Below are positions 3,601 through 32,814 of a stretch of DNA of 40,762 bases, piece after piece (the stretch's first letter is position 1; each line of letters starts with the position of its first letter). Source of the DNA: a virus (lineage: Duplodnaviria; Caudoviricetes); IMG/VR virus record IMGVR_UViG_3300022867_000001, positions 1-40,762 of that record; one strand, written 5' to 3'. A model generated the notes under the pieces. The model was not told the origin of the DNA. It did no database searches and saw only the letters and a list, made by a program, of their open reading frames with translations. The translations under genes were made by a program, and so were the position numbers.

Positions 3601-4432
3601 CTTTGTCTTCTATTTCTTGTAAAACTTGTACACTTTTTCTTCTTAATGAATTGTTTGTTAATTTAAAAGCACCTGCCGCAAACGCAGAACCAAAAGCTGT
3701 ACCAAAGCCAAACCCTGCGGCTGTTGATATTGCTCCTCTACCTACGCTGTACTCATCTTGAATACCTGCTTTTATATTTGTAGTTTGTAATAAAGCATCT
3801 TGACCACCTGCTATAACAGCATTGATACCTCCTTCAGTTAAACCGCCTTTAATTATGGCATTACCCATTGCCGCTTTTTGTGCTTGTTTTGAAGTTTCTT
3901 TTAATGCTTGTTCGTTAAGTTCACCTGCTATTTTATTTTTTAGCGTTACTCTTAATGCTTGTTTATAAGCTGTTTTAGCCGCTTGACCGCCGACACCTAC
4001 TCCTATTAAGTTTACAGGGTCAGCTATCATAGCTCCACCATTATCAACTAACCATGCACCAAAATTTCTATTTGGGTCATTCCAAAATGAAGGTAAGTTT
4101 TCATACGTTTGTGATATGTATGCAAATTCTTTTAATCTTTTATCATCATCTTCACCCATGACATTAGACATATCCATACCCATAGACACAGTGTTGTTTG
4201 TTCTCCAAGACCTGTCAGTATAGAAATAATCTAATAAATCTGCATGAGACATTTTATTAAATTTTTTATCGTTTTCTCTATAAGAGTAATAACTTTTTAA
4301 TGTGTTGTAAAATCCTTCAGTCTGTATTTCTTCTAAAGCACCTTCATCTGTAGTAGCTATTTTAGGTACAGTGTAATTTGCATTAAAAATAGGTTCTTCT
4401 ATAGTTTTCTTGTTTAATGTTTTAAATTCCAT
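617..4432 (-). CDS. Internal virion protein D (gp16-like ejectosome protein)
   Basis: 1271 aa; position between gp15 and gp17 in T7 gene order. Confidence 0.75.
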   Translation of the reverse strand: MEFKTLNKKTIEEPIFNANYTVPKIATTDEGALEEIQTEGFYNTLKSYYSYRENDKKFNKMSHADLLDYFYTDRSWRTNNTVSMGMDMSNVMGEDDDKRLKEFAYISQTYENLPSFWNDPNRNFGAWLVDNGGAMIADPVNLIGVGVGGQAAKTAYKQALRVTLKNKIAGELNEQALKETSKQAQKAAMGNAIIKGGLTEGGINAVIAGGQDALLQTTNIKAGIQDEYSVGRGAISTAAGFGFGTAFGSAFAAGAFKLTNNSLRRKSVQVLQEIEDKGRSNMSGAKLFDKLMPDNNTPSLKNKPAPKSTKEYINRLNEGEITNVDKPPLLSNNATKFKNPSTGKEISYEGLIKYNILETTERLNKGKITFEQMKTEMKELGADPKKLEERANNAAYSDEFVKLYVTMGSQKDAIKTRHDIMGAIGSESVNTKYNYTPEEKMELILKFQEERKITEKLLDVDSIMGTNVARALSARNIDADGTRVTKLMATPEDPKMLDLSKGTAEQQWEFIQAVGKLADRDQIIRALQNSREVDKWDLATEFVNNNLLSSPDTHILNIVSGLVQTQWKPATRLLRGANMYFRDADRAKVIMREALQTYLYQYVFLGHALKRASKSFREGRAILDSRQMKHDSTMRQGQLQDLFDAWGDAVSKTVGADGSTLGKIITGGFRGTGRVISAPMRVLSAGDEFLKSMMFKARMTSLINSRILKENPEFSVMSDTKIQINKKNFTDITYADKYKERAKQIEAEYINENGSAVEIDKTVDARLDSPLYDAQEGSYTGNVGQINPNTGELEDKLTGSILRIATKHKALRVLGLHFVNTPSNLLRWSAQHLPFLGRFQFQMAHMLAEKRLPNGKLRSEIARGLNPFRKKEYLNPEAAAEATARIQMGWALWGTAIGFAMSGKITGGGDRSYKKQRDKEQNTGEQPYSYKTDDGRYISLNRLDPLMMPFFIAADLVELMNKHLKYTDDIDPAVQQDTTELVMGVVATMTRNLTSKFYTKNIIELANFFSSDEAMHSRRLDKMGSQVLSQFVYKAFPLSGGLRYIDRVNDEWERELYTLNDRLQTLNPLDSKTSVMPRRNMFGEKIDRKNGWLFGLGGESGLWSSPFAMTNFKNTETAKFIREREFKYNHPQATLKVKGDSMGMRLKDIRNSKNQTAYDRMLEIKDDTRVTSNGAIITSSTYTGKKYTLAEYVEKMILDKKSFIYMYPDGTINGKDEQAQVIIGFIQRIDRNAKRLMMREFPEFEERRKALLQNKYRSMKKHRETLETLAQ

Positions 4433-6516
4433 TATCTATTTCCACTTCTTATTCTTGGAGTTTCTTTTGGTCTATTAATTATATTTTCTATAGCTTGTTC
4501 AATAGTTTCAACAGGAACATTTAATTTTTCAGATATAGAAGCTATCATTTCATCTCCTTGCTCTTGTGGAATAAGTTGAAAAAATTCCAGATTAAATTTA
4601 TTGTCAGGAATTATTGATGTAAGGGCTTGTTCAACTAAAGGCATTACTTTGCTTTCAGTAAGACTTTGATTAAGAGATTCCATAAAAGATGCTTGACCTT
4701 GACTTCTTTGAGAACCTTCTTTTAAAGTTGTTGTACTATCAGTTGGCTCATACTCAGGTATCTCTATGTCAATATTTGGAATTGCCTCTACAATAGCGTT
4801 AAATGTTTCATAGAAACCAGAAGCTCGTTTTGTTTCTTCCTTTGCGTCCTCTATTAGTTTGTCATCAGCAGTCTTGTCAATTTTATCTTTCTTAGCTTTT
4901 TCTTCAGCCTTAATTCTATCAACTTCCTGTTCATCAAAAGTTTTCATGTTTATTACACCTTGAGCATCTTTATATTGACGTTCTACGTCATCAAGTTTTC
5001 TTTTCATAAACGCTGTTCTCTCTTCATTAGTAGGTTTTAATCTTTTTTTTCCATTAGCTTTAGCGTCTTCATAATAATCTTTTTCAAAATCATATATCTC
5101 AACAATAAGATGTGCATTAACGCTATCTGTTGCAACTTTTACTAAATCTCCATCAGGGTTTGCGGCTATATATGGTGCTAACATTTGTCCTAATTTATTG
5201 TTAACAGCTTCTGTTCCCATGACGTAAGATGTATTAACTAGATGAAGTCTTTTGTTATCATCTAATATTGAATTATCGTAAGCCTCATACAATTTAGGTT
5301 GATTTGCAGGAGCTATGTTATTATCATTTATTAATTTTGCTATATCAGTTCTATCTTGAACTTGGTCGTCACGTATCATAACTATTAAATTATTGAATAC
5401 TTCAGGGTCGTTATCGTAGTATGGGTTAGCCTTCATTGTATTTACAAACAGTGTTAAAAGTTGCATATCTCCTTCTCTTCTGACAGCGTCTTTCAAATCT
5501 TGTTTTTCTATTTCATTTAATGGTCTAGTAGTTACATTTCCATTTTCATCTATTTCTTCAACTTTATTCACAAGCATTTTAGTAGTAAGTGCTTTTATTC
5601 GGTCAGCAGTTTCACGTGCTTCTACTTGTCTATCATTAGTAATTAAATTTCTTCTTTTAATTTCTAAATTTTTTACAAGCGTAGCAATTTCTTTTGATTT
5701 TCTTGAGGCTAAAGTACCAATAGCTGAACCACTTTTAGAATAACCTAAATTTGTATTTAAAAGAATATCAACTCTATCTAAGTCATCTTCTGTTTTTGCA
5801 GTGTCAATTAAATTTGATACACTGTTTTTCATTACCGCTAATGTTTCTTCGTTTGTGTACAATAAAGATGAACCTGTGCCATCTCTCAAGGGTAAAGGTA
5901 TTTGTAAACTTTTAAGAAAATTAGGTATTTCTGTTTTTAATTTTGAAGTTTCAATTCCATCTAAAAGAGTGATACCTTCTTCATTTTTAACTTTTAGAGC
6001 TTCACCTGCTCTAGCTTCAGCATCTTGTGTAGCGGCATCTGCTCTAAATTTATTAAAATTGGAAGTAAACCCTAATAAAGTTGCACTATCCATTGACCTT
6101 GTATCAGGTAAGAACTTGTTAATAAACATATCTAAATTAGTGCTTTTATTTGTAATATCGTATTCACCGTTGTTTTGAGCCGCTACAATAGTATTTTTTA
6201 CTTCTTCGGCTTTAACTCTACCTGCATGATAGTTTGTAGTAGCATCAATGTATTTACCAGTTAACTCTTTGTGTTTACCTGAAATAATCTCTGCTTGTAT
6301 GGTTTCAAAAGATTTACCTGTTGCATACATCTCGTCTATCTTTGCAATAGCTTTATCTTTTTTCCTATCAATTCTTAATTCATTTGCTTTACCAATTTTG
6401 TAACCTGCGTTAGTTAAAGATTTAGCTAAACCATCTACACTACTGCCTGATGATACATACCCTGCACTACCTGCACCATAGTATTTATTTGTTCCTTGTC
6501 TTTTATATTCAGCCAT
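4432..6516 (-). CDS. Internal virion protein C (gp15-like)
   Basis: 694 aa, charged; synteny. Confidence 0.65.
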   Translation of the reverse strand: MAEYKRQGTNKYYGAGSAGYVSSGSSVDGLAKSLTNAGYKIGKANELRIDRKKDKAIAKIDEMYATGKSFETIQAEIISGKHKELTGKYIDATTNYHAGRVKAEEVKNTIVAAQNNGEYDITNKSTNLDMFINKFLPDTRSMDSATLLGFTSNFNKFRADAATQDAEARAGEALKVKNEEGITLLDGIETSKLKTEIPNFLKSLQIPLPLRDGTGSSLLYTNEETLAVMKNSVSNLIDTAKTEDDLDRVDILLNTNLGYSKSGSAIGTLASRKSKEIATLVKNLEIKRRNLITNDRQVEARETADRIKALTTKMLVNKVEEIDENGNVTTRPLNEIEKQDLKDAVRREGDMQLLTLFVNTMKANPYYDNDPEVFNNLIVMIRDDQVQDRTDIAKLINDNNIAPANQPKLYEAYDNSILDDNKRLHLVNTSYVMGTEAVNNKLGQMLAPYIAANPDGDLVKVATDSVNAHLIVEIYDFEKDYYEDAKANGKKRLKPTNEERTAFMKRKLDDVERQYKDAQGVINMKTFDEQEVDRIKAEEKAKKDKIDKTADDKLIEDAKEETKRASGFYETFNAIVEAIPNIDIEIPEYEPTDSTTTLKEGSQRSQGQASFMESLNQSLTESKVMPLVEQALTSIIPDNKFNLEFFQLIPQEQGDEMIASISEKLNVPVETIEQAIENIINRPKETPRIRSGNR

Positions 6517-23507: not shown

Positions 23508-23581
23508 GGCTTCGTGGCGGAATGGTTACGCAGAAGATTGCAAATCTTTGTATCCCAGTTCGATTCTGGGCGAAGCCTCCA
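23508..23581 (+). tRNA. tRNA-Cys(GCA) with encoded CCA
   Basis: GGCTTCG/CGAAGCC acceptor, GCG/CGC D stem, GAAGA-TTGCAAA-TCTTT anticodon arm, TTCGATT T loop, U73, CCA. Confidence 0.95.
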
Positions 23582-27799: not shown

Positions 27800-27815
27800 G
27801 AGGATTGCAAATCCT
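27800..27815 (+). mobile_element. Putative attP core (tRNA-Cys anticodon-arm mimic)
   Basis: GAGGATTGCAAATCCT = AGGATT-GCA-AATCCT palindrome, 86 bp beyond the integrase stop; resembles the anticodon arm of the tRNA-Cys at 23508. Confidence 0.8.
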
Positions 27816-27901
27816 ATTGTATCTATGCACACATAATTAGTATGCTTTTATTAGTTAAATATATACTCATTAATCAACTATCCTCTAATTACCATTATTC
27901 C

Positions 27902-28783
27902 TTAACTAGCTTTGTTAAAAGTGTTAAGAACATTTACTGCGTCTCGTAGATTATTAGGTATTAAATGTGAATACCTGCTAATCATTTTCCATGACTTATG
28001 ACCTAACATCTGACCAATAAAGTGAAGTTCTACTTTACCTGATTGAGCCATACGTGTTGCACAAGTGTGTCTTAAACAATGAATGACAAACTCTTTGTCG
28101 TCTTGAAGGTTCATTGCTTTTCTTAGTCTTCTCCAAGTATTCTCACAAGTCCAATATTTTAAATGTGAAAACACTAGGTCGTTTCTTCCTACCGCTTTTT
28201 TAAGTAACTTCTCAACGATTAACTTAGCACGTTCTGTTAAAGGTACACCTCTGGGCATATTGTTTTTAGTTACCTCTTTAGGTAAATTAACAACATAATG
28301 ACCATCTACATTGTGTATCATTAGCTTCTTAATAGATAACGCTTCGCCAAGCCTTAAACCGCTATCGATAAGAAAAAGATAGAACTCTAAATAATCAACC
28401 ATATTCCACTCGGTCAATAATTTAATTATTTCTTTTTCTTCGATTGGCTCAAGGTATCTTTCTCGTCCATTGTTACTTTCGTCCTGCCATTGAATATGAG
28501 GCATTCTATCTAAATGATAAATAGACTGTCTCTGATTGGCATAACGTAACATCTTAGAGATTGAGGACATATAACGATTAATAGTTGCAGGAGCAAAACC
28601 TCTGTCCTCCAACGTATCCACAAGATTTTCTATGTGGCTATCGTTAACTTCAGTTACAAGCATTCCCTTACCAAGCATATCAATTATTTTCTCGGCTCGT
28701 TTAGATTGCAACTTTTCCCAACCTTTAAGTGTTAACTTGCGGTGTATCTCCGTCAACAACTTGACATTTTTTGTCTGTTGCAT
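27902..28783 (-). CDS. int: Tyrosine integrase
   Basis: SGLRLGE (R), TKN (K), HCLRH (HxxR), LGHKS (H), RYSH (Y). Confidence 0.95.
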   Translation of the reverse strand: MQQTKNVKLLTEIHRKLTLKGWEKLQSKRAEKIIDMLGKGMLVTEVNDSHIENLVDTLEDRGFAPATINRYMSSISKMLRYANQRQSIYHLDRMPHIQWQDESNNGRERYLEPIEEKEIIKLLTEWNMVDYLEFYLFLIDSGLRLGEALSIKKLMIHNVDGHYVVNLPKEVTKNNMPRGVPLTERAKLIVEKLLKKAVGRNDLVFSHLKYWTCENTWRRLRKAMNLQDDKEFVIHCLRHTCATRMAQSGKVELHFIGQMLGHKSWKMISRYSHLIPNNLRDAVNVLNTFNKAS

Positions 28784-28804
28784 TTGTACCTCCGCTTTTC
28801 ATTG

Positions 28805-29152
28805 TTATTTGACCCATTCAAGAAGAGTATTGTGTACCCTTCTTCCCTTTGCTGTAAGACGCACAAGTTTTCTACGTCTTTCCATTGGGTCTTCAAAGTT
28901 CTCTAATAGACCTATCCCAACTTTTCGGTGTCTGTTGATAGTTGCTAACTTATAGCAATTTCTTGAAACACTTGATTGAGCTATGTCTAAAACCTCCGAT
29001 ATAGCTTGTTGAGCCACACCGTCTTTACCGCCTTTATCCGCTACATAGAAAAAAACAGATATAGCTTGAGCCTCTAACTGTGGGTCAAACTTTCTCATTT
29101 CTTCTATAATCTTCAAAAGATTATTACTCATTTTCTTTCTTCTTTCTTTCAT
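28805..29152 (-). CDS. MarR-like winged-helix protein (regulator or excision factor); start may be 29131
   Basis: QQAISEVLDIAQSSVSRN HTH; EDPMERRRKLVRLTAKG wing motif. Confidence 0.85.
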   Translation of the reverse strand: MKERRKKMSNNLLKIIEEMRKFDPQLEAQAISVFFYVADKGGKDGVAQQAISEVLDIAQSSVSRNCYKLATINRHRKVGIGLLENFEDPMERRRKLVRLTAKGRRVHNTLLEWVK

Positions 29153-29423: not shown

Positions 29424-29444
29424 ATTTCTCCTTTCTTTTTGCTA

Positions 29445-29478
29445 ATGCTATCCTGTCGCACATAATATGTGCAATAGG
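29445..29478 (-). promoter_or_regulatory. Putative host sigma70 promoter overlapped by an operator-like palindrome
   Basis: TTGCAC-N18-TAGCAT; CCTGTCGCACATA-A-TATGTGCAATAGG inverted repeat at 29452-29478. Confidence 0.5.
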
Positions 29479-29498
29479 AAATAATGAGTTATTAACAT

Positions 29499-29559
29499 GC
29501 AAAATACACCGTCTAGTCTTTAGACGGCATTTCGGCTATTGAAGCCTCGTCAGTTTTGC
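29499..29559 (-). ncRNA. Hammerhead ribozyme, type I
   Basis: GCAAAA CUGACGA GGCU-UCAAU-AGCC GAAA UGCCGUCUA-AAGAC-UAGACGGUG UA^UUUUGC; full core and all three stems; predicted cut between 29505 and 29504. Confidence 0.9.
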
Positions 29560-29603
29560 TTTTTAGAACTTTTCCATTAGTCCTCCATTGTTGATTTTTG
29601 GAT

Positions 29604-29855
29604 TTAATCTCTGCAACCAATAGGTTCTGGTTTATTATGTAACACCCCACACCCTAATGGACTTAAATCGCAAAAAGGATACGCAGGACAACCTAAATGT
29701 TTTCTATCATTATCTAAGTTTTTTTTAGGTTTCTTTTTTTTAGCAGTGATTTTTGATTTCTTTTTCTTGCCAAAGATGGCGTCCCAATTCTCTTTGTATT
29801 TCTCTGAGGGTATGTGAACGCCGTCTCGTATTTTATAAGATTTAAAGCCTGACAT
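29604..29855 (-). CDS. Hypothetical basic, Cys-containing early protein (83 aa)
   Basis: ORF, TAATG-coupled to upstream gene. Confidence 0.6.
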   Translation of the reverse strand: MSGFKSYKIRDGVHIPSEKYKENWDAIFGKKKKSKITAKKKKPKKNLDNDRKHLGCPAYPFCDLSPLGCGVLHNKPEPIGCRD

Positions 29856-30041
29856 TATTTAAAAGATATCTCCATCATGCCGTCACCAATGTTTTTTGTT
29901 TTGATACCTGAAAAGTCTTTTTTCAATCTTTTTGAAAGCACCTTGTAAGCCTTATTTTTTAATACTGAAGGTTTAGACCATGTAAGGCTTTTATCCCTCA
30001 TCATTTTGTCCTCGTCACTCATGTATATTTTTTTTTGTCAT
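29855..30041 (-). CDS. Small early ORF, frameshifted at an A9 tract (intact 55-aa frame 29855-30022)
   Basis: GGAG SD precedes ATG at 30041, which stops after 8 codons; removing one A joins it to MSDEDKMMRDK... Confidence 0.5.
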
Positions 30042-30059
30042 GTTTCACTCCGTTGATTG

Positions 30060-30146
30060 TTGATTAAATAAAAACGCCGTCTAGTCCACGCTTCAGTCAA
30101 TACTAAAAAGTTTGATAATCACGCTAGAACTAGAAAACATTTATTT
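30060..30146 (-). repeat. Hairpin family B copy (long interrupted stem)
   Basis: 28 bp (30060-30087) identical to 30445-30472; UGUUUUCUAGUUC pairs with GGACUAGACGGCG. Confidence 0.7.
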
Positions 30147-30149
30147 GAT

Positions 30150-30205
30150 TTGACTTATATAAAAAGTCTCAAAGCCTACTCTGTGTGAATAGGCTTTAAG
30201 TCTGT
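30150..30205 (-). repeat. Intergenic repeat A, copy 1 (double hairpin)
   Basis: ACAGACTTAAAGCCTATTCACACAGAGTAGGCTTTGAGACTTTTTATATAAGTCAA. Confidence 0.9.
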
Positions 30206-30427
30206 CTATAACTTTTTAATTATGATTTTTGCTGTTTTATCTTTCATAATTTTTCTTGCTTGATTGATGGCTTTTCTATCTGAGGCAATAAACATACCTT
30301 TAACAGTTGTTGGAATACCGCCCATAGTAATTCTTTGGGGAATATCCATAAAAGCATAATAAGTGTCTATTGTCCCATCATTGAAATTCATACAATGTTT
30401 ATAAATTGTATATTCTTGCTCTACCAT
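30206..30427 (-). CDS. Hypothetical early protein (73 aa)
   Basis: GGAG SD, CAA-rich leader. Confidence 0.7.
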   Translation of the reverse strand: MVEQEYTIYKHCMNFNDGTIDTYYAFMDIPQRITMGGIPTTVKGMFIASDRKAINQARKIMKDKTAKIIIKKL

Positions 30428-30444
30428 TTTTGCTCCATTGTTGA

Positions 30445-30494
30445 TTGATTAAATAAAAACGCCGTCTAGTCCTTAGCAAAGAATTAAACGGCGT
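30445..30494 (-). repeat. Hairpin family B copy
   Basis: ACGCCGTTTAATTCTT-TGCT-AAGGACTAGACGGCGT followed by TTTTATTT. Confidence 0.7.
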
Positions 30495-30508
30495 AATTGT
30501 ATTATTTA

Positions 30509-30643
30509 TTAACTAACTTTTTTAATAGGAAAGTTAATTACATTAGATGTTGGACGCAGTGAGGCTCGGACTTTTTGCACTGTACTTGTCGCCAAGTAAC
30601 ACACCGCCAACTCTTCGAGGCTAAAAAGTGAAAGTTGTTTCAC
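30509..30643 (-). CDS. Small hypothetical protein (44 aa, GTG start)
   Basis: TAGTG overlap; MKQLSLFSLEELAVCYLATSTVQKVRASLRPTSNVINFPIKKVS. Confidence 0.5.
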   Translation of the reverse strand: MKQLSLFSLEELAVCYLATSTVQKVRASLRPTSNVINFPIKKVS

Positions 30644-30807
30644 TAACTAAGCCAACCTTCAGCAATAGCATTATGAAACATTTTTAGCTTTTGCTCTTGT
30701 GGTGCGTTTTGGTAGTCCTCAAAGTGTTTCTTCTTCTCGGTCTCGTCTCGATACTTAAAGGCACTCTCTGCCCTTTGTATCTTTTGAACACATCTTGCAA
30801 TCTGCAT
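30643..30807 (-). CDS. Small hypothetical protein (54 aa)
   Basis: AGGAG SD; MQIARCVQKIQRAESAFKYRDETEKKKHFEDYQNAPQEQKLKMFHNAIAEGWLS. Confidence 0.7.
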   Translation of the reverse strand: MQIARCVQKIQRAESAFKYRDETEKKKHFEDYQNAPQEQKLKMFHNAIAEGWLS

Positions 30808-30839
30808 GTGTGGTTCTCCTATTGTTGGTTGATTGTTGA

Positions 30840-30897
30840 TTGACTTTTAAAAAAAAAGTCTCAAAGCCTACCCTGTGCAAATAGGCTTTAAGTCTGT
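30840..30897 (-). repeat. Intergenic repeat A, copy 2
   Basis: Near-identical to 30150-30205. Confidence 0.9.
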
Positions 30898-30904
30898 TTT
30901 TAAT

Positions 30905-31465
30905 TTACCAACTTTTATTGAAGATATGAACTTTGTAATTGTCCGCCTTGCACTCCATATAATCAAATGACAAATCACGCTCAAAGCTGTCATAGTCAAA
31001 ATATCTTGCAAGTGTAGAATTGCTGTCATTGTCTAAGCCTTCAACGGTGTCGTTTGCGTAATCTTGGGCAAACTCTTTGAAGCTGTCATAAGTACCGTGA
31101 AAAGCGTCTTCAAAATGTTCAAGGTCTTCAACTGACCAATGTTCAATGAAGCCTTCAACCGCTTTTACTCCGTGCAATTTAATTGCCTCCACAACTTCAA
31201 TTACTTTTTCTAAATCTGGATATTCTCCCAAATTTGGAAAATTGTCATAGTCATGTATTGCGTATTCCTCTGCGTCTGGACTTGGTGACGATTTAAGAAC
31301 CTCCGCAATTTGTGCTTCTAGTTCGTCTTTGTCTGTCTTTGGCTCAATCCAAGAACCATACAGAACGCCTGAATTGTAAGACGATAAACAAGCTATGTAT
31401 ATTTTAGATTTTTCTATTTCGTCAACTTTGCTTAACTCATTTGTTTTAATTGTATTAGTTTGCAT
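30905..31465 (-). CDS. ardA: Antirestriction protein ArdA (DNA mimic)
   Basis: IYIACLSSYNSGVLYGSW, EEYAIHDYD, LARYFDYDSFERDL; highly acidic. Confidence 0.9.
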   Translation of the reverse strand: MQTNTIKTNELSKVDEIEKSKIYIACLSSYNSGVLYGSWIEPKTDKDELEAQIAEVLKSSPSPDAEEYAIHDYDNFPNLGEYPDLEKVIEVVEAIKLHGVKAVEGFIEHWSVEDLEHFEDAFHGTYDSFKEFAQDYANDTVEGLDNDSNSTLARYFDYDSFERDLSFDYMECKADNYKVHIFNKSW

Positions 31466-31501
31466 TGTGTTAACTCCATGTGTTGATTGTTGATTGTTGA
31501 T

Positions 31502-31556
31502 TTGACTTTATAAAAAGTCTCAAAGCCTACCCTGTGTGAATAGGCTTCAAGTCTGT
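31502..31556 (-). repeat. Intergenic repeat A, copy 3
   Basis: Near-identical to the other two copies. Confidence 0.9.
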
Positions 31557-31569
31557 TTATAATTAATAT

Positions 31570-31788
31570 TTATGAGTTCTTAACTATGTACATTTTACGA
31601 ACTCTTACGGCTCGGTTTCTATCGTCAAATACAACAGGCTCAATTTTATTTTTAATCATGTTGTTATATTGGTTCTGGTGTTTTTCTAATTCGTGCAAAG
31701 CCTGTGTGTAGTTTAGTTTCTCATCTTCAAAGAAATAAAAAGACTTACTCAGGTTTTGCGTATCAACTTTAATTGAATAGGTGTCCAT
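31570..31788 (-). CDS. Hypothetical protein (72 aa), first gene of the early operon
   Basis: GGAG SD directly after the ribozyme. Confidence 0.7.
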   Translation of the reverse strand: MDTYSIKVDTQNLSKSFYFFEDEKLNYTQALHELEKHQNQYNNMIKNKIEPVVFDDRNRAVRVRKMYIVKNS

Positions 31789-31799
31789 GTGTGTCTCCG

Positions 31800-31857
31800 T
31801 TGTTTGTTTCAGCGTTGCTCCGCCTCGTCAGTGACGTATTAAACGCCATACAAACAA
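31800..31857 (-). ncRNA. Hammerhead ribozyme, type III
   Basis: UUGUUUG UA^UGGCGU-UUAAU-ACGUCA CUGACGA GGCG-GAGCAA-CGCU GAAA CAAACAA; predicted cut between 31849 and 31848. Confidence 0.9.
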
Positions 31858-32022: not shown

Positions 32023-32051
32023 TCTGTAAACTAAGCATATGTGGATTGCAA
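32023..32051 (-). promoter_or_regulatory. Putative host sigma70 early promoter
   Basis: TTGCAA-N17-TACAGA with upstream A-tracts (UP-element-like). Confidence 0.5.
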
Positions 32052-32400: not shown

Positions 32401-32425
32401 TGATTATCTCTATTAGGTTAATATT

Positions 32426-32442
32426 CTAATAGTGCAGGTTTA
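32426..32442 (-). promoter_or_regulatory. Phage RNAP promoter TAAACCTGCACTATTAG (end-proximal)
   Basis: Matches the 5-copy consensus. Confidence 0.85.
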
Positions 32443-32577
32443 CTCTCTGCGTGTACTCTTTATAGTTATTACTATTAATGATATAATTACTGAGGTGATA
32501 CCTATAGATAGACCTTAGGTTAACTTTAAGAGATACTTTAAGTAGATACTTAGAGTGTATCTTTTTTATCATACCTT

Positions 32578-32594
32578 CTAATAGTGCAGGTTTA
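32578..32594 (-). promoter_or_regulatory. Phage RNAP promoter TAAACCTGCACTATTAG (end-proximal)
   Basis: Identical to 32426-32442. Confidence 0.85.
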
Positions 32595-32712
32595 CTATTC
32601 ATTAACCTTATGACCTTAACCCTGCGTTACCTTCTCAATGCCTCTGTGCGTGGCTCTGTGTGGCTCTGTGAGTGTGTTCCTGTGGTGCATTAGATGAGTT
32701 GAAGGATTGCAC

Positions 32713-32814
32713 GGCGTGTGCCTGTGCGTGGTACTTAAAGAGTAACAAGGCGTGTGTCTTTGCGTGGTACTTAAAGAGTAACAAGGCGTGTGTCTTTGCG
32801 TGGTACTTAAAGAG
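32713..32814. repeat. 36-bp tandem repeat, about 2.8 copies
   Basis: GGCGTGTGTCTTTGCGTGGTACTTAAAGAGTAACAA units at 32713, 32749 and 32785. Confidence 0.92.

What the first reader, a model, noticed from the sequence alone, without database searches (positions are those of the whole stretch)
29499..31857. Early operon bracketed by two hammerhead ribozymes: candidate self-excising mRNA cassette
Seen: two complete, co-oriented sense-strand hammerheads (both CUGACGA/GAAA/GUA), one just before the first early gene and one just after the last. Established: hammerhead cleavage leaves a 5'-OH and a 2',3'-cyclic phosphate, the end pair joined by RtcB-type ligases; 5'-OH RNA is a poor substrate for 5'-monophosphate-stimulated RNase E. 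Inference: read-through of the region would excise a 2344-nt RNA (31848 to 29505) carrying ardA and about six small ORFs. That RNA could be stabilised or circularised, and uncoupled from the downstream regulator-integrase-RNAP message. T7 processes its early RNA with host RNase III instead. Single hammerheads in phages are known; I do not know of a paired, operon-bracketing arrangement in a T7-like phage.
Basis: partly seen in the sequence, partly recalled or inferred. Interest (0 to 1): 0.92.

Follow-up and report, generated by a model that had tools for sequence, protein, structure and literature searches.

The report
Cut-and-cap ribozymes in pelagiphage early genes
A T7-like phage related to viruses of SAR11 ocean bacteria carries two conserved self-cleaving hammerhead RNA motifs that likely cut its early message and leave each downstream piece with a predicted protective base-paired 5' end; clustered phage hammerheads are already known, and the proposed excised, circularised cassette is poorly supported.

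Summary
Both hammerheads are real: a type III (cut 31849/31848) and a type I (cut 29505/29504). They have canonical cores, 0 of 200 shuffles match, and relatives show compensatory changes. The bracketed or circular cassette idea is weak. Only 8 of 31 relatives have a clean pair; the others have 0-4 ribozymes. RtcB was found in 1 of 201 host-family genomes and not in the phage. Better reading: each ribozyme makes a new 5' end just before a ribosome-binding site. In 91 of 98 type I cases the downstream product is predicted to refold with a paired 5' end, through a second covarying partner strand. That would protect it from RNase J, found in 55 of 61 host genomes. Long RNase III-like hairpins of the same design fill the same slots in relatives. 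Metatranscriptome contigs from one study, laid on a relative, begin 14-33 nt after both cuts and none crosses them (weak hint). Clustered hammerheads flanking ardA near marR and integrase were published in 2011 (active; no circles detected), and this scan noted the theme in other genomes. The covarying cap strand appeared in nothing I read. Verdict: new member of a known kind with a testable mechanism.

The parts
32046..32051 (-). Conserved TTGCAA/TTGACA -35-like box of the likely host-polymerase early promoter (inferred)
   Evidence: Same motif at the same place in relatives; not among the consensus-scan hits
31800..31857 (-). HH1, type III hammerhead; predicted cut 31849/31848; the product would start with the 6-bp stem I at nucleotide 1, SD and ATG 50-60 nt later
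31570..31788 (-). First early ORF, 72 aa, no family hit
31504..31560 (-). D1a: long hairpin (about 22 bp with two mismatches) whose lower 3' arm has a second downstream partner; candidate RNase III site or weak terminator
30905..31465 (-). ardA anti-restriction gene, 186 aa
   Evidence: PF07275 E 1.3e-30; phrog_2059
30842..30901 (-). D1b hairpin; this slot (before the 54-aa gene) holds a type I, II or III hammerhead in other relatives
30509..30807 (-). Two small ORFs (54 aa, 44 aa)
30455..30493 (-). D5a hairpin plus U run; shares its 3' arm with HH2 stem III
   Evidence: (D5, D11)
30206..30427 (-). ORF 73 aa
30152..30211 (-). D1c hairpin
30071..30141 (-). D5b long imperfect hairpin
29604..30022 (-). 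Two small ORFs (55 aa, 83 aa)
29563..29586 (-). SD plus 4-codon micro-ORF (MEKF) whose stop ends 3 nt before HH2 stem I
   Evidence: similar 2-4 codon ORFs in 13 of 32 distinct last-ribozyme leaders, 0 of 52 other type I leaders
29499..29559 (-). HH2, type I hammerhead; predicted cut 29505/29504
29437..29504 (-). Predicted post-cleavage 5' stem: the stem I 3' strand (29504-29499) re-pairs with a second copy of its partner at 29442-29437, directly before an SD (29432-29428) and ATG (29423)
   Evidence: (z -3.1)
27902..29152 (-). marR-like regulator (28805-29152) and integrase (27902-28783), downstream of HH2

Best explanation
The two motifs are conserved hammerhead ribozymes that likely cut the phage's early transcript as it is made, and each cut is predicted to leave the downstream message with a base-paired 5' end just before a ribosome-binding site, which would protect it from 5'-to-3' decay. 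Shown: motifs, positions, covariation, gene context and host enzyme inventory. Predicted by folding: type III and type II products start with stem I itself. Type I products re-pair the freed stem I strand with a second, covarying copy of its partner further downstream. For HH2 the ribozyme fold dominates until about 61 nt past the cut have been made, then the downstream partner wins, so cutting would have to be co-transcriptional and re-ligation would be disfavoured. Inferred: the long D1, D5 and leader hairpins are host RNase III sites doing the same job, because they fill the same slots in relatives and D1 has the same two-partner design. The early region would then be a T7-style processed operon built from interchangeable cut-and-cap modules, and the 2344-nt piece at most an intermediate.
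For: (1) Canonical cores and stems, 0 of 200 shuffles. Changes on both sides in 11 of 16 pairs (28 type III sequences) and 12 of 17 pairs (39 type I sequences). (2) 0-4 ribozymes per early region, with an SD and start codon within 130 nt after the cut in 92 of 98 type I, 40 of 45 type III and 6 of 6 type II rows. (3) At most 1 unpaired 5' nucleotide in 91 of 98 distinct type I products, against 40.4 expected from shuffles. The exact 5-nt partner is present in 80 of 98 (shuffled mean 6.4, maximum 14) and follows the stem I sequence class: 5 of 8 classes, reached by 26 of 40320 class permutations. In L045 and L046 the insert is lost but the pairing is kept. (4) The leader slot holds a type III ribozyme in 17 and a long hairpin in 13 of 31 regions, never both. 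The slot before the 54-aa gene holds D1 in 21, type I in 12, type III in 5, type II in 2 and something else in 3 of 43 distinct rows. (5) Host family: RNase J 55 of 61, RNase III 58 of 61, RNase E/G 4 of 4. (6) Weak hint: on relative L010, contigs of three metatranscriptome runs begin at 5794 (cut 5778/5779) and at 4114, about 4125 and 4133 (cut 4099/4100). None crosses either cut, while the probably-DNA run X2 continues past 5778. (7) Related prophage clusters cleave in vitro and in E. coli (PMC3088659).
Against: No cleavage or stability measurement exists for these ribozymes. ViennaRNA puts an inactive stem I/II swap 1.8 kcal/mol below the active fold of this genome's HH1, whose stem II also opens with G-U. 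In the full-length precursor the downstream partner outcompetes stem I (median 0.6 kcal/mol for last ribozymes, 2.05 for others), so it could be an inhibitor and not a cap. The aligned ribozymes were picked by a scanner that requires the stems, so percent paired is circular, and the rows are related by descent. The RNA hint comes from assembled contigs of one study on a relative. A reverse-transcriptase stop at stem III or strain variation could explain the type I site, and no RNA-run contig covers either ribozyme in this genome itself. D1 hairpins also score as terminator-like, and RNase III cleavage of them is untested. One relative (HTVC105P) has no hammerhead, so ribozymes are dispensable in this group. 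That a paired 5' end blocks RNase J is recalled, not found in my searches.
Confidence: 0.68

Rival explanations
1. Translation-gated switch: a ribosome ending at the foot of a type I ribozyme (micro-ORF or upstream stop codon) blocks stem I, the downstream partner captures the other strand, and the transcript stays uncut. Cutting before the marR-integrase-RNAP genes would then depend on host translation.
For: Micro-ORFs with SD end 2-6 nt before stem I in 13 of 32 last-ribozyme leaders and 0 of 52 other type I leaders, with different peptides. Upstream stops cluster at -3 to +10 of stem I. The two folds are close in energy and there is a window of about 60 nt.
Against: 19 of 32 last leaders lack the micro-ORF, and in several the upstream gene reads through the ribozyme. 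Stops next to modules also follow from genome compaction. The downstream SD is predicted open in both folds, so no clear output.
Confidence: 0.12
2. One reading: the pair excises one stable 2344-nt cassette that may be circularised, by RtcB or by a hybrid type II hammerhead formed at the joined ends.
For: A clean type III-type I pair in 8 of 31 regions. The joined ends form a type II layout (stems 6, 3, 10) only 2.2 kcal/mol above the minimum fold.
Against: RtcB in 1 of 201 host-family genomes and not in the phage. The hybrid stem II is no longer in true partners than in mismatched ones (3 bp or more in 9 of 29, against 28%). Five internal hairpins are candidate cut sites. No back-joint between the cut sites in the listed joints (thin data). 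Circles were not detected in related clusters (PMC3088659).
Confidence: 0.07
3. The internal hairpins are mainly intrinsic terminators or attenuators, and the ribozymes insulate separately promoted units (for example a marR-integrase promoter just after HH2, like P3 of LUZ100).
For: D1a-c match a terminator scan. An inverted repeat with a TTGCAC...TAGCAT spacing lies at 29474-29445. LUZ100 has a separate host promoter for marR-integrase (PMC10134795, passages).
Against: The U run starts 2 nt after the stem and has a conserved second partner in all 36 D1 sequences (which the search pattern required). Promoter-like hits are at chance level (18 against 14.6 +/- 4.7). L010 RNA contigs begin upstream of that candidate promoter's start. 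An RNA-run contig spans D5b. A terminator is not a natural swap partner for a ribozyme.
Confidence: 0.13

Closest known systems
Clustered prophage hammerheads, especially the Agrobacterium tumefaciens triple flanking ardA (Perreault et al. 2011, PMC3088659; I read part 1 of the main section, passages, and the text of Figs S2 and S3)
   Same: Several co-oriented hammerheads flanking single genes or short blocks; ardA, small ORFs, marR and integrase as neighbours; proposed to cut long phage transcripts; circles considered and not detected.
   Different: Here a free SAR11 T7-like phage group with types III and I. The covarying second partner that would pair the new 5' end, the swap with long hairpins and the micro-ORF did not appear in the passages I read.
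RNase III processing of phage T7 early RNA (recalled, no call)
   Same: One early transcript cut between genes just upstream of ribosome-binding sites; long imperfect hairpins as signals.
   Different: Some slots use a self-cleaving RNA and give 5'-OH and cyclic phosphate ends; RNase III cleavage of the hairpins here is untested.
glmS ribozyme and RNase J1 (PMC11780869 passage; PMC6765202 passages)
   Same: Ribozyme cut in an mRNA leader giving a 5'-OH downstream product in a host with RNase J.
   Different: The glmS product is degraded; here the product's 5' end is predicted to be paired. No ligand site is known.
Synthetic RiboJ-type insulators and Tornado circularisation (both recalled, no call)
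   Same: RiboJ: hammerhead plus hairpin before the ribosome-binding site gives a uniform 5' end. Tornado: two ribozymes flank an RNA.
   Different: Natural and recurring here. Tornado needs RtcB and a ligation stem; RtcB was not found in 200 of 201 host-family genomes.

Membership tests
Hammerhead ribozyme (consensus of PMC3088659) | Core C3 U4 G5 A6 N7 G8 A9, G12 A13 A14 A15, U16 H17 | tested here: met
   Both motifs; consensus as quoted; core columns invariant in alignments
Hammerhead ribozyme (consensus of PMC3088659) | Three stems, paired next to the core | tested here: met
   Stems 6/4/8 and 6/4/10; HH1 10.1-11.1 is a G-U wobble; covariation in relatives
Hammerhead ribozyme (consensus of PMC3088659) | Tertiary contact between stems I and II for fast cleavage | not tested
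   Mostly 6-bp stem I and 4-bp stem II fit the extended geometry (recalled); no conserved pseudoknot seen by eye, no formal test
Hammerhead ribozyme (consensus of PMC3088659) | Self-cleavage after H17 | not testable with these tools
   Only a weak hint from contig starts on a relative
Rfam hammerhead families | Covariance-model match | tested here: not met
   No hammerhead family at E<=1 in the window, so not filed under any Rfam family
Clustered phage/prophage hammerheads | Several co-oriented ribozymes flanking genes or short gene blocks near integrase | tested here: met
RtcB-circularised ribozyme-flanked RNA | RtcB in host or phage | tested here: not met
   1 of 201 host-family genomes; 0 in the phage; controls rang in 10 of 14
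RtcB-circularised ribozyme-flanked RNA | Selected pairing that brings the ends together | tested here: not met
   Hybrid stem II not enriched over mismatched partners; an interrupted end duplex of -12.3 kcal/mol is possible but uses strands already in stems I and III
RtcB-circularised ribozyme-flanked RNA | Junction reads | tested here: inconclusive
   None listed, but only sparse contigs
RNase III processing site (D1, D5, leader hairpins) | Duplex of about two helical turns | tested here: met
   D1 about 20-22 bp with 1x1 mismatches as minimum fold in most of 36 distinct copies, upper stem covaries; length requirement recalled
RNase III processing site (D1, D5, leader hairpins) | Host RNase III | tested here: met
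   58 of 61 genomes
RNase III processing site (D1, D5, leader hairpins) | Cleavage with 2-nt 3' overhang | not testable with these tools
   No end-mapped reads
Intrinsic terminator (D1) | Hairpin followed directly by a U run | tested here: inconclusive
   Passes the scan, but AC precedes the U run and the run has two pairing partners

The most novel reading that the evidence does not exclude
The type I ribozyme before the marR-integrase-RNAP genes is a translation-gated timer. It has about 60 nt of transcription in which to cut; a ribosome on the micro-ORF at its foot blocks stem I so that the covarying downstream strand locks it off. Host translation state would then set how the lysis-lysogeny genes are processed and stabilised, with the same strand serving as off-switch before the cut and as a self-made 5' cap after it.
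Probability: 0.12. Interest if true: 0.85.

Novelty: new member of a known kind. Interest (0 to 1): 0.5.

Why it matters
The role of hammerheads in bacteria and phages is described as largely unknown (PMC6765202). This group gives a specific, testable answer: cut, then pair the new 5' end before the ribosome-binding site, interchangeably with RNase III-like hairpins. It is testable in cultured phages (HTVC019P has the pair; HTVC022P has the last ribozyme plus the leader hairpin; HTVC105P has none), and stranded infection RNA-seq of HTVC022P is already public (PRJNA1253180, per PMC12753301). The arrangement itself is not new.

Tried and rejected
Rfam scan: tRNA-Cys only. Integrase search in genome contigs: no prophage found. 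Promoter scan at chance level. My first idea, that HH2 leaves an unpaired 5'-OH end for RNase J decay of the marR-integrase message, was rejected once the downstream partner was found. Self-ligation by a hybrid type II ribozyme: layout possible, no selection signal. PF09511 search was uninformative because no control rang. Reads laid on the window: only sparse contigs, both ribozymes uncovered in the RNA runs, which says nothing. A joint going back 340 nt on L010 does not join the cut sites; I read it as a repeat or gene-order difference. L053 was dropped from the tally as partial (the script had counted it); 5 incomplete and 6 duplicate loci were also left out. Literature searches for a report of these pelagiphage ribozymes found none: hammerhead ribozyme + pelagiphage (one unrelated review), hammerhead + Autographiviridae + ribozyme (none); 'ribozyme' has 0 occurrences in PMC12753301, bioRxiv 410191 and PMC10134795. 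The library lacks most subscription papers. Dataset S1 of PMC3088659 was not searched and may hold environmental copies. Whether the Agrobacterium prophage is T7-like was not verified.
Full report
Setting. The window is a complete 40,762-bp virus record with direct terminal repeats. Its early region matches 15 phage records, 13 of them Pelagibacter phages. Gene order on the - strand is terminase, lysozyme-like gene, a non-coding stretch, small early ORFs with ardA, a MarR-like regulator, integrase and T7-type RNA polymerase. This is the layout of HTVC019P-type temperate pelagiphages (bioRxiv 10.1101/410191, passages). The SAR11 host is inferred from these relatives.

Observation. A descriptor scan of both strands found exactly two hammerheads: a type III with N17 at 31849 (stems I/II/III 6/4/8) and a type I with N17 at 29505 (6/4/10). 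In 200 dinucleotide shuffles none had stems this long. Both match the published core consensus (PMC3088659). Rfam misses them. The fragment between the cuts is 2344 nt.

Conservation. The same ribozymes occur in cultured pelagiphages and IMG/VR relatives. In 28 type III sequences 11 of 16 pairs change on both sides; in 39 type I sequences 12 of 17 do. These rows were chosen by a scanner that needs the stems and are related by descent, so the percent paired is circular; the compensatory changes around an invariant core are the evidence. Covariance models built from them also found variants in L045, L051 and L242; those of L045 and L051 have a U-U first pair in stem II, a variant described in PMC3088659.

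It is not a fixed pair. I examined 43 loci chosen by integrase or DNA similarity, not by ribozyme. The script set aside 5 incomplete and 6 duplicate loci, and I dropped L053 as partial, leaving 31. Architectures: last type I only 11; type III plus type I 8 (including the window and HTVC019P); III-I-I 6; III-III-I-I 1; I-I 2; type III only 2; none 1. The leader slot holds a type III ribozyme in 17 and a long imperfect hairpin in 13, never both; 1 had neither by my short motif test. The slot before the 54-aa gene holds a D1 hairpin in 21, type I in 12, type III in 5, type II in 2 and something else in 3 of 43 distinct rows (counted by me; this set includes loci found by ribozyme pattern). A related group with no integrase or marR match carries three or four type I ribozymes between genes.

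What each cut leaves. An SD and start codon follow within 130 nt in 92 of 98 type I, 40 of 45 type III and 6 of 6 type II rows. Type III and II products begin with stem I. Type I products would begin with a freed strand, yet 91 of 98 fold with at most one unpaired 5' base, against 40.4 expected when the downstream sequence is shuffled. The cause is a second copy of the stem I partner downstream. It is present as an exact 5-mer in 80 of 98 rows (shuffled mean 6.4, maximum 14) and changes with the stem I sequence: 5 of 8 classes, reached by 26 of 40,320 class permutations. In the window, 29504-29499 pairs with 29442-29437 just before the SD at 29432 (z -3.1). HH2 is therefore a start marker for the next message as much as an end marker. 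Folding of growing transcripts keeps stem I at probability 0.95 or more until 61 nt past the cut; by 73 nt the downstream partner has 0.85. D1 hairpins (36 distinct copies) have the same design: a stem of about 20-22 bp whose lower 3' arm has a second partner downstream, so a cut in that arm would also leave a paired 5' end. The pattern used to collect D1 required that partner.

Host enzymes. In the family of a complete Ca. Pelagibacter genome (G001), RtcB was found in 1 of 201 genomes, RNase J in 55 of 61 (40 over the cut-off) and RNase III in 58 of 61; RNase E/G was found in 4 of 4 handles. Many of these genomes are incomplete. The phage has no RtcB or PF09414 hit. RNase J1 degrades the 5'-OH product of glmS in Bacillus (PMC11780869, passage), so a 5'-OH alone should not protect here. 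That a paired 5' end blocks RNase J is recalled knowledge.

Circles. Joining the fragment's ends gives a type II layout with a 3-bp hybrid stem II, 2.2 kcal/mol above the minimum fold, so protein-free ligation is not excluded. Across 29 distinct neighbouring ribozyme pairs the hybrid stem is 1 bp in 13 and 3 bp or more in 9, similar to mismatched partners (41% and 28%), so there is no sign of selection.

RNA data. Only assembled contigs of four runs were available, three of them metatranscriptomes of one study. On the window, no RNA-run contig covers either ribozyme. On relative L010 all three RNA runs have a contig starting at 5794, 15 nt after the type I cut, with no cover of 5740-5793 by bin depth. 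At the type III site they start at 4114 (next to adapter), about 4125 (deduced from depth) and 4133, after the cut at 4099/4100. The probably-DNA run continues past 5778. Loss of 10-20 terminal bases in such libraries is recalled. This is a weak hint: one study, a relative, contigs, and a reverse-transcriptase stop could mimic the type I site.

Against the reading. This genome's HH1 has a predicted inactive fold 1.8 kcal/mol below the active one. The downstream partner could be mainly an inhibitor. D1 passes a terminator scan. Nothing has been assayed.

Micro-ORF. An SD and four-codon ORF end 3 nt before HH2 stem I. Similar 2-4 codon ORFs occur in 13 of 32 last-ribozyme leaders and 0 of 52 other type I leaders. 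This suggests translation coupling, but 19 of 32 lack it.

Prior knowledge. Perreault et al. 2011 (PMC3088659) report multiple hammerheads flanking genes or short gene blocks in prophages. One is a triple around ardA with marR and integrase downstream in Agrobacterium; it cleaves in vitro and in E. coli, processing into gene-sized mRNAs was proposed, and spliced or circular products were not detected. A 2019 review calls the bacterial role largely elusive (PMC6765202, passages). My searches found no paper on these pelagiphage ribozymes. Earlier notes of this scan describe the same theme in other genomes; I saw them after reaching this reading.

Verdict. The ribozymes are real and a new member of a known kind. 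The cassette and circle reading is unlikely. The cut-and-cap reading is the best supported (0.68) and is directly testable in cultured phages. Interest 0.5.

Noticed in passing
window 29563-29586 (-): SD plus 4-codon ORF ending 3 nt before HH2; 2-4 codon versions with different peptides in 13 of 32 last-ribozyme leaders, often with an overlapped stop-start.
   Followed up: partly
window 23508-23578 (+) and about 27800-27830: Full tRNA-Cys(GCA) between the amidase and primase genes, and a tRNA-Cys anticodon-like piece between integrase and RNAP (likely attP), as described for HTVC019P.
   Followed up: partly
window 29474-29445 and 32051-32036 (-): An inverted repeat inside the post-HH2 stem and a similar short palindrome in the likely early promoter could be operator sites of the MarR-like protein, or simply RNA stem; a -35/-10-like spacing overlaps the first.
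   Followed up: no
L036:170-230, L129, L169, L184: Type II hammerheads look like chimeras: stem III matches type I copies (e.g. L042) and stem I is a hairpin as in type III, suggesting permutation by recombination between modules.
   Followed up: no
window 29506-29530 against 30455-30476 and 30071-30090: HH2 stem III shares its 3' arm with the D5 hairpins, and in many relatives type III stem III shares its flanks with the leader hairpin base; ribozymes seem built on the same base stems as the hairpins.
   Followed up: partly
L160, L164, L176, L187, L203: A related phage group with no integrase or marR match before RNAP carries three or four type I hammerheads, most starting at or on the upstream stop codon; in some the stop is the TGA of the catalytic core.
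   Followed up: partly
L115, L121, L186, L224: Hammerheads of the same layout in more distant, some GC-richer, viral contigs; not characterised.
   Followed up: no
window 32424-32814: Three 36-bp tandem repeats and two copies of a 21-bp motif in the non-coding region before the early promoter, possibly terminal-repeat or packaging signals.
   Followed up: no
L235 (G013:C1:135791-137023): The single RtcB hit among 201 host-family genomes; context not examined.
   Followed up: no
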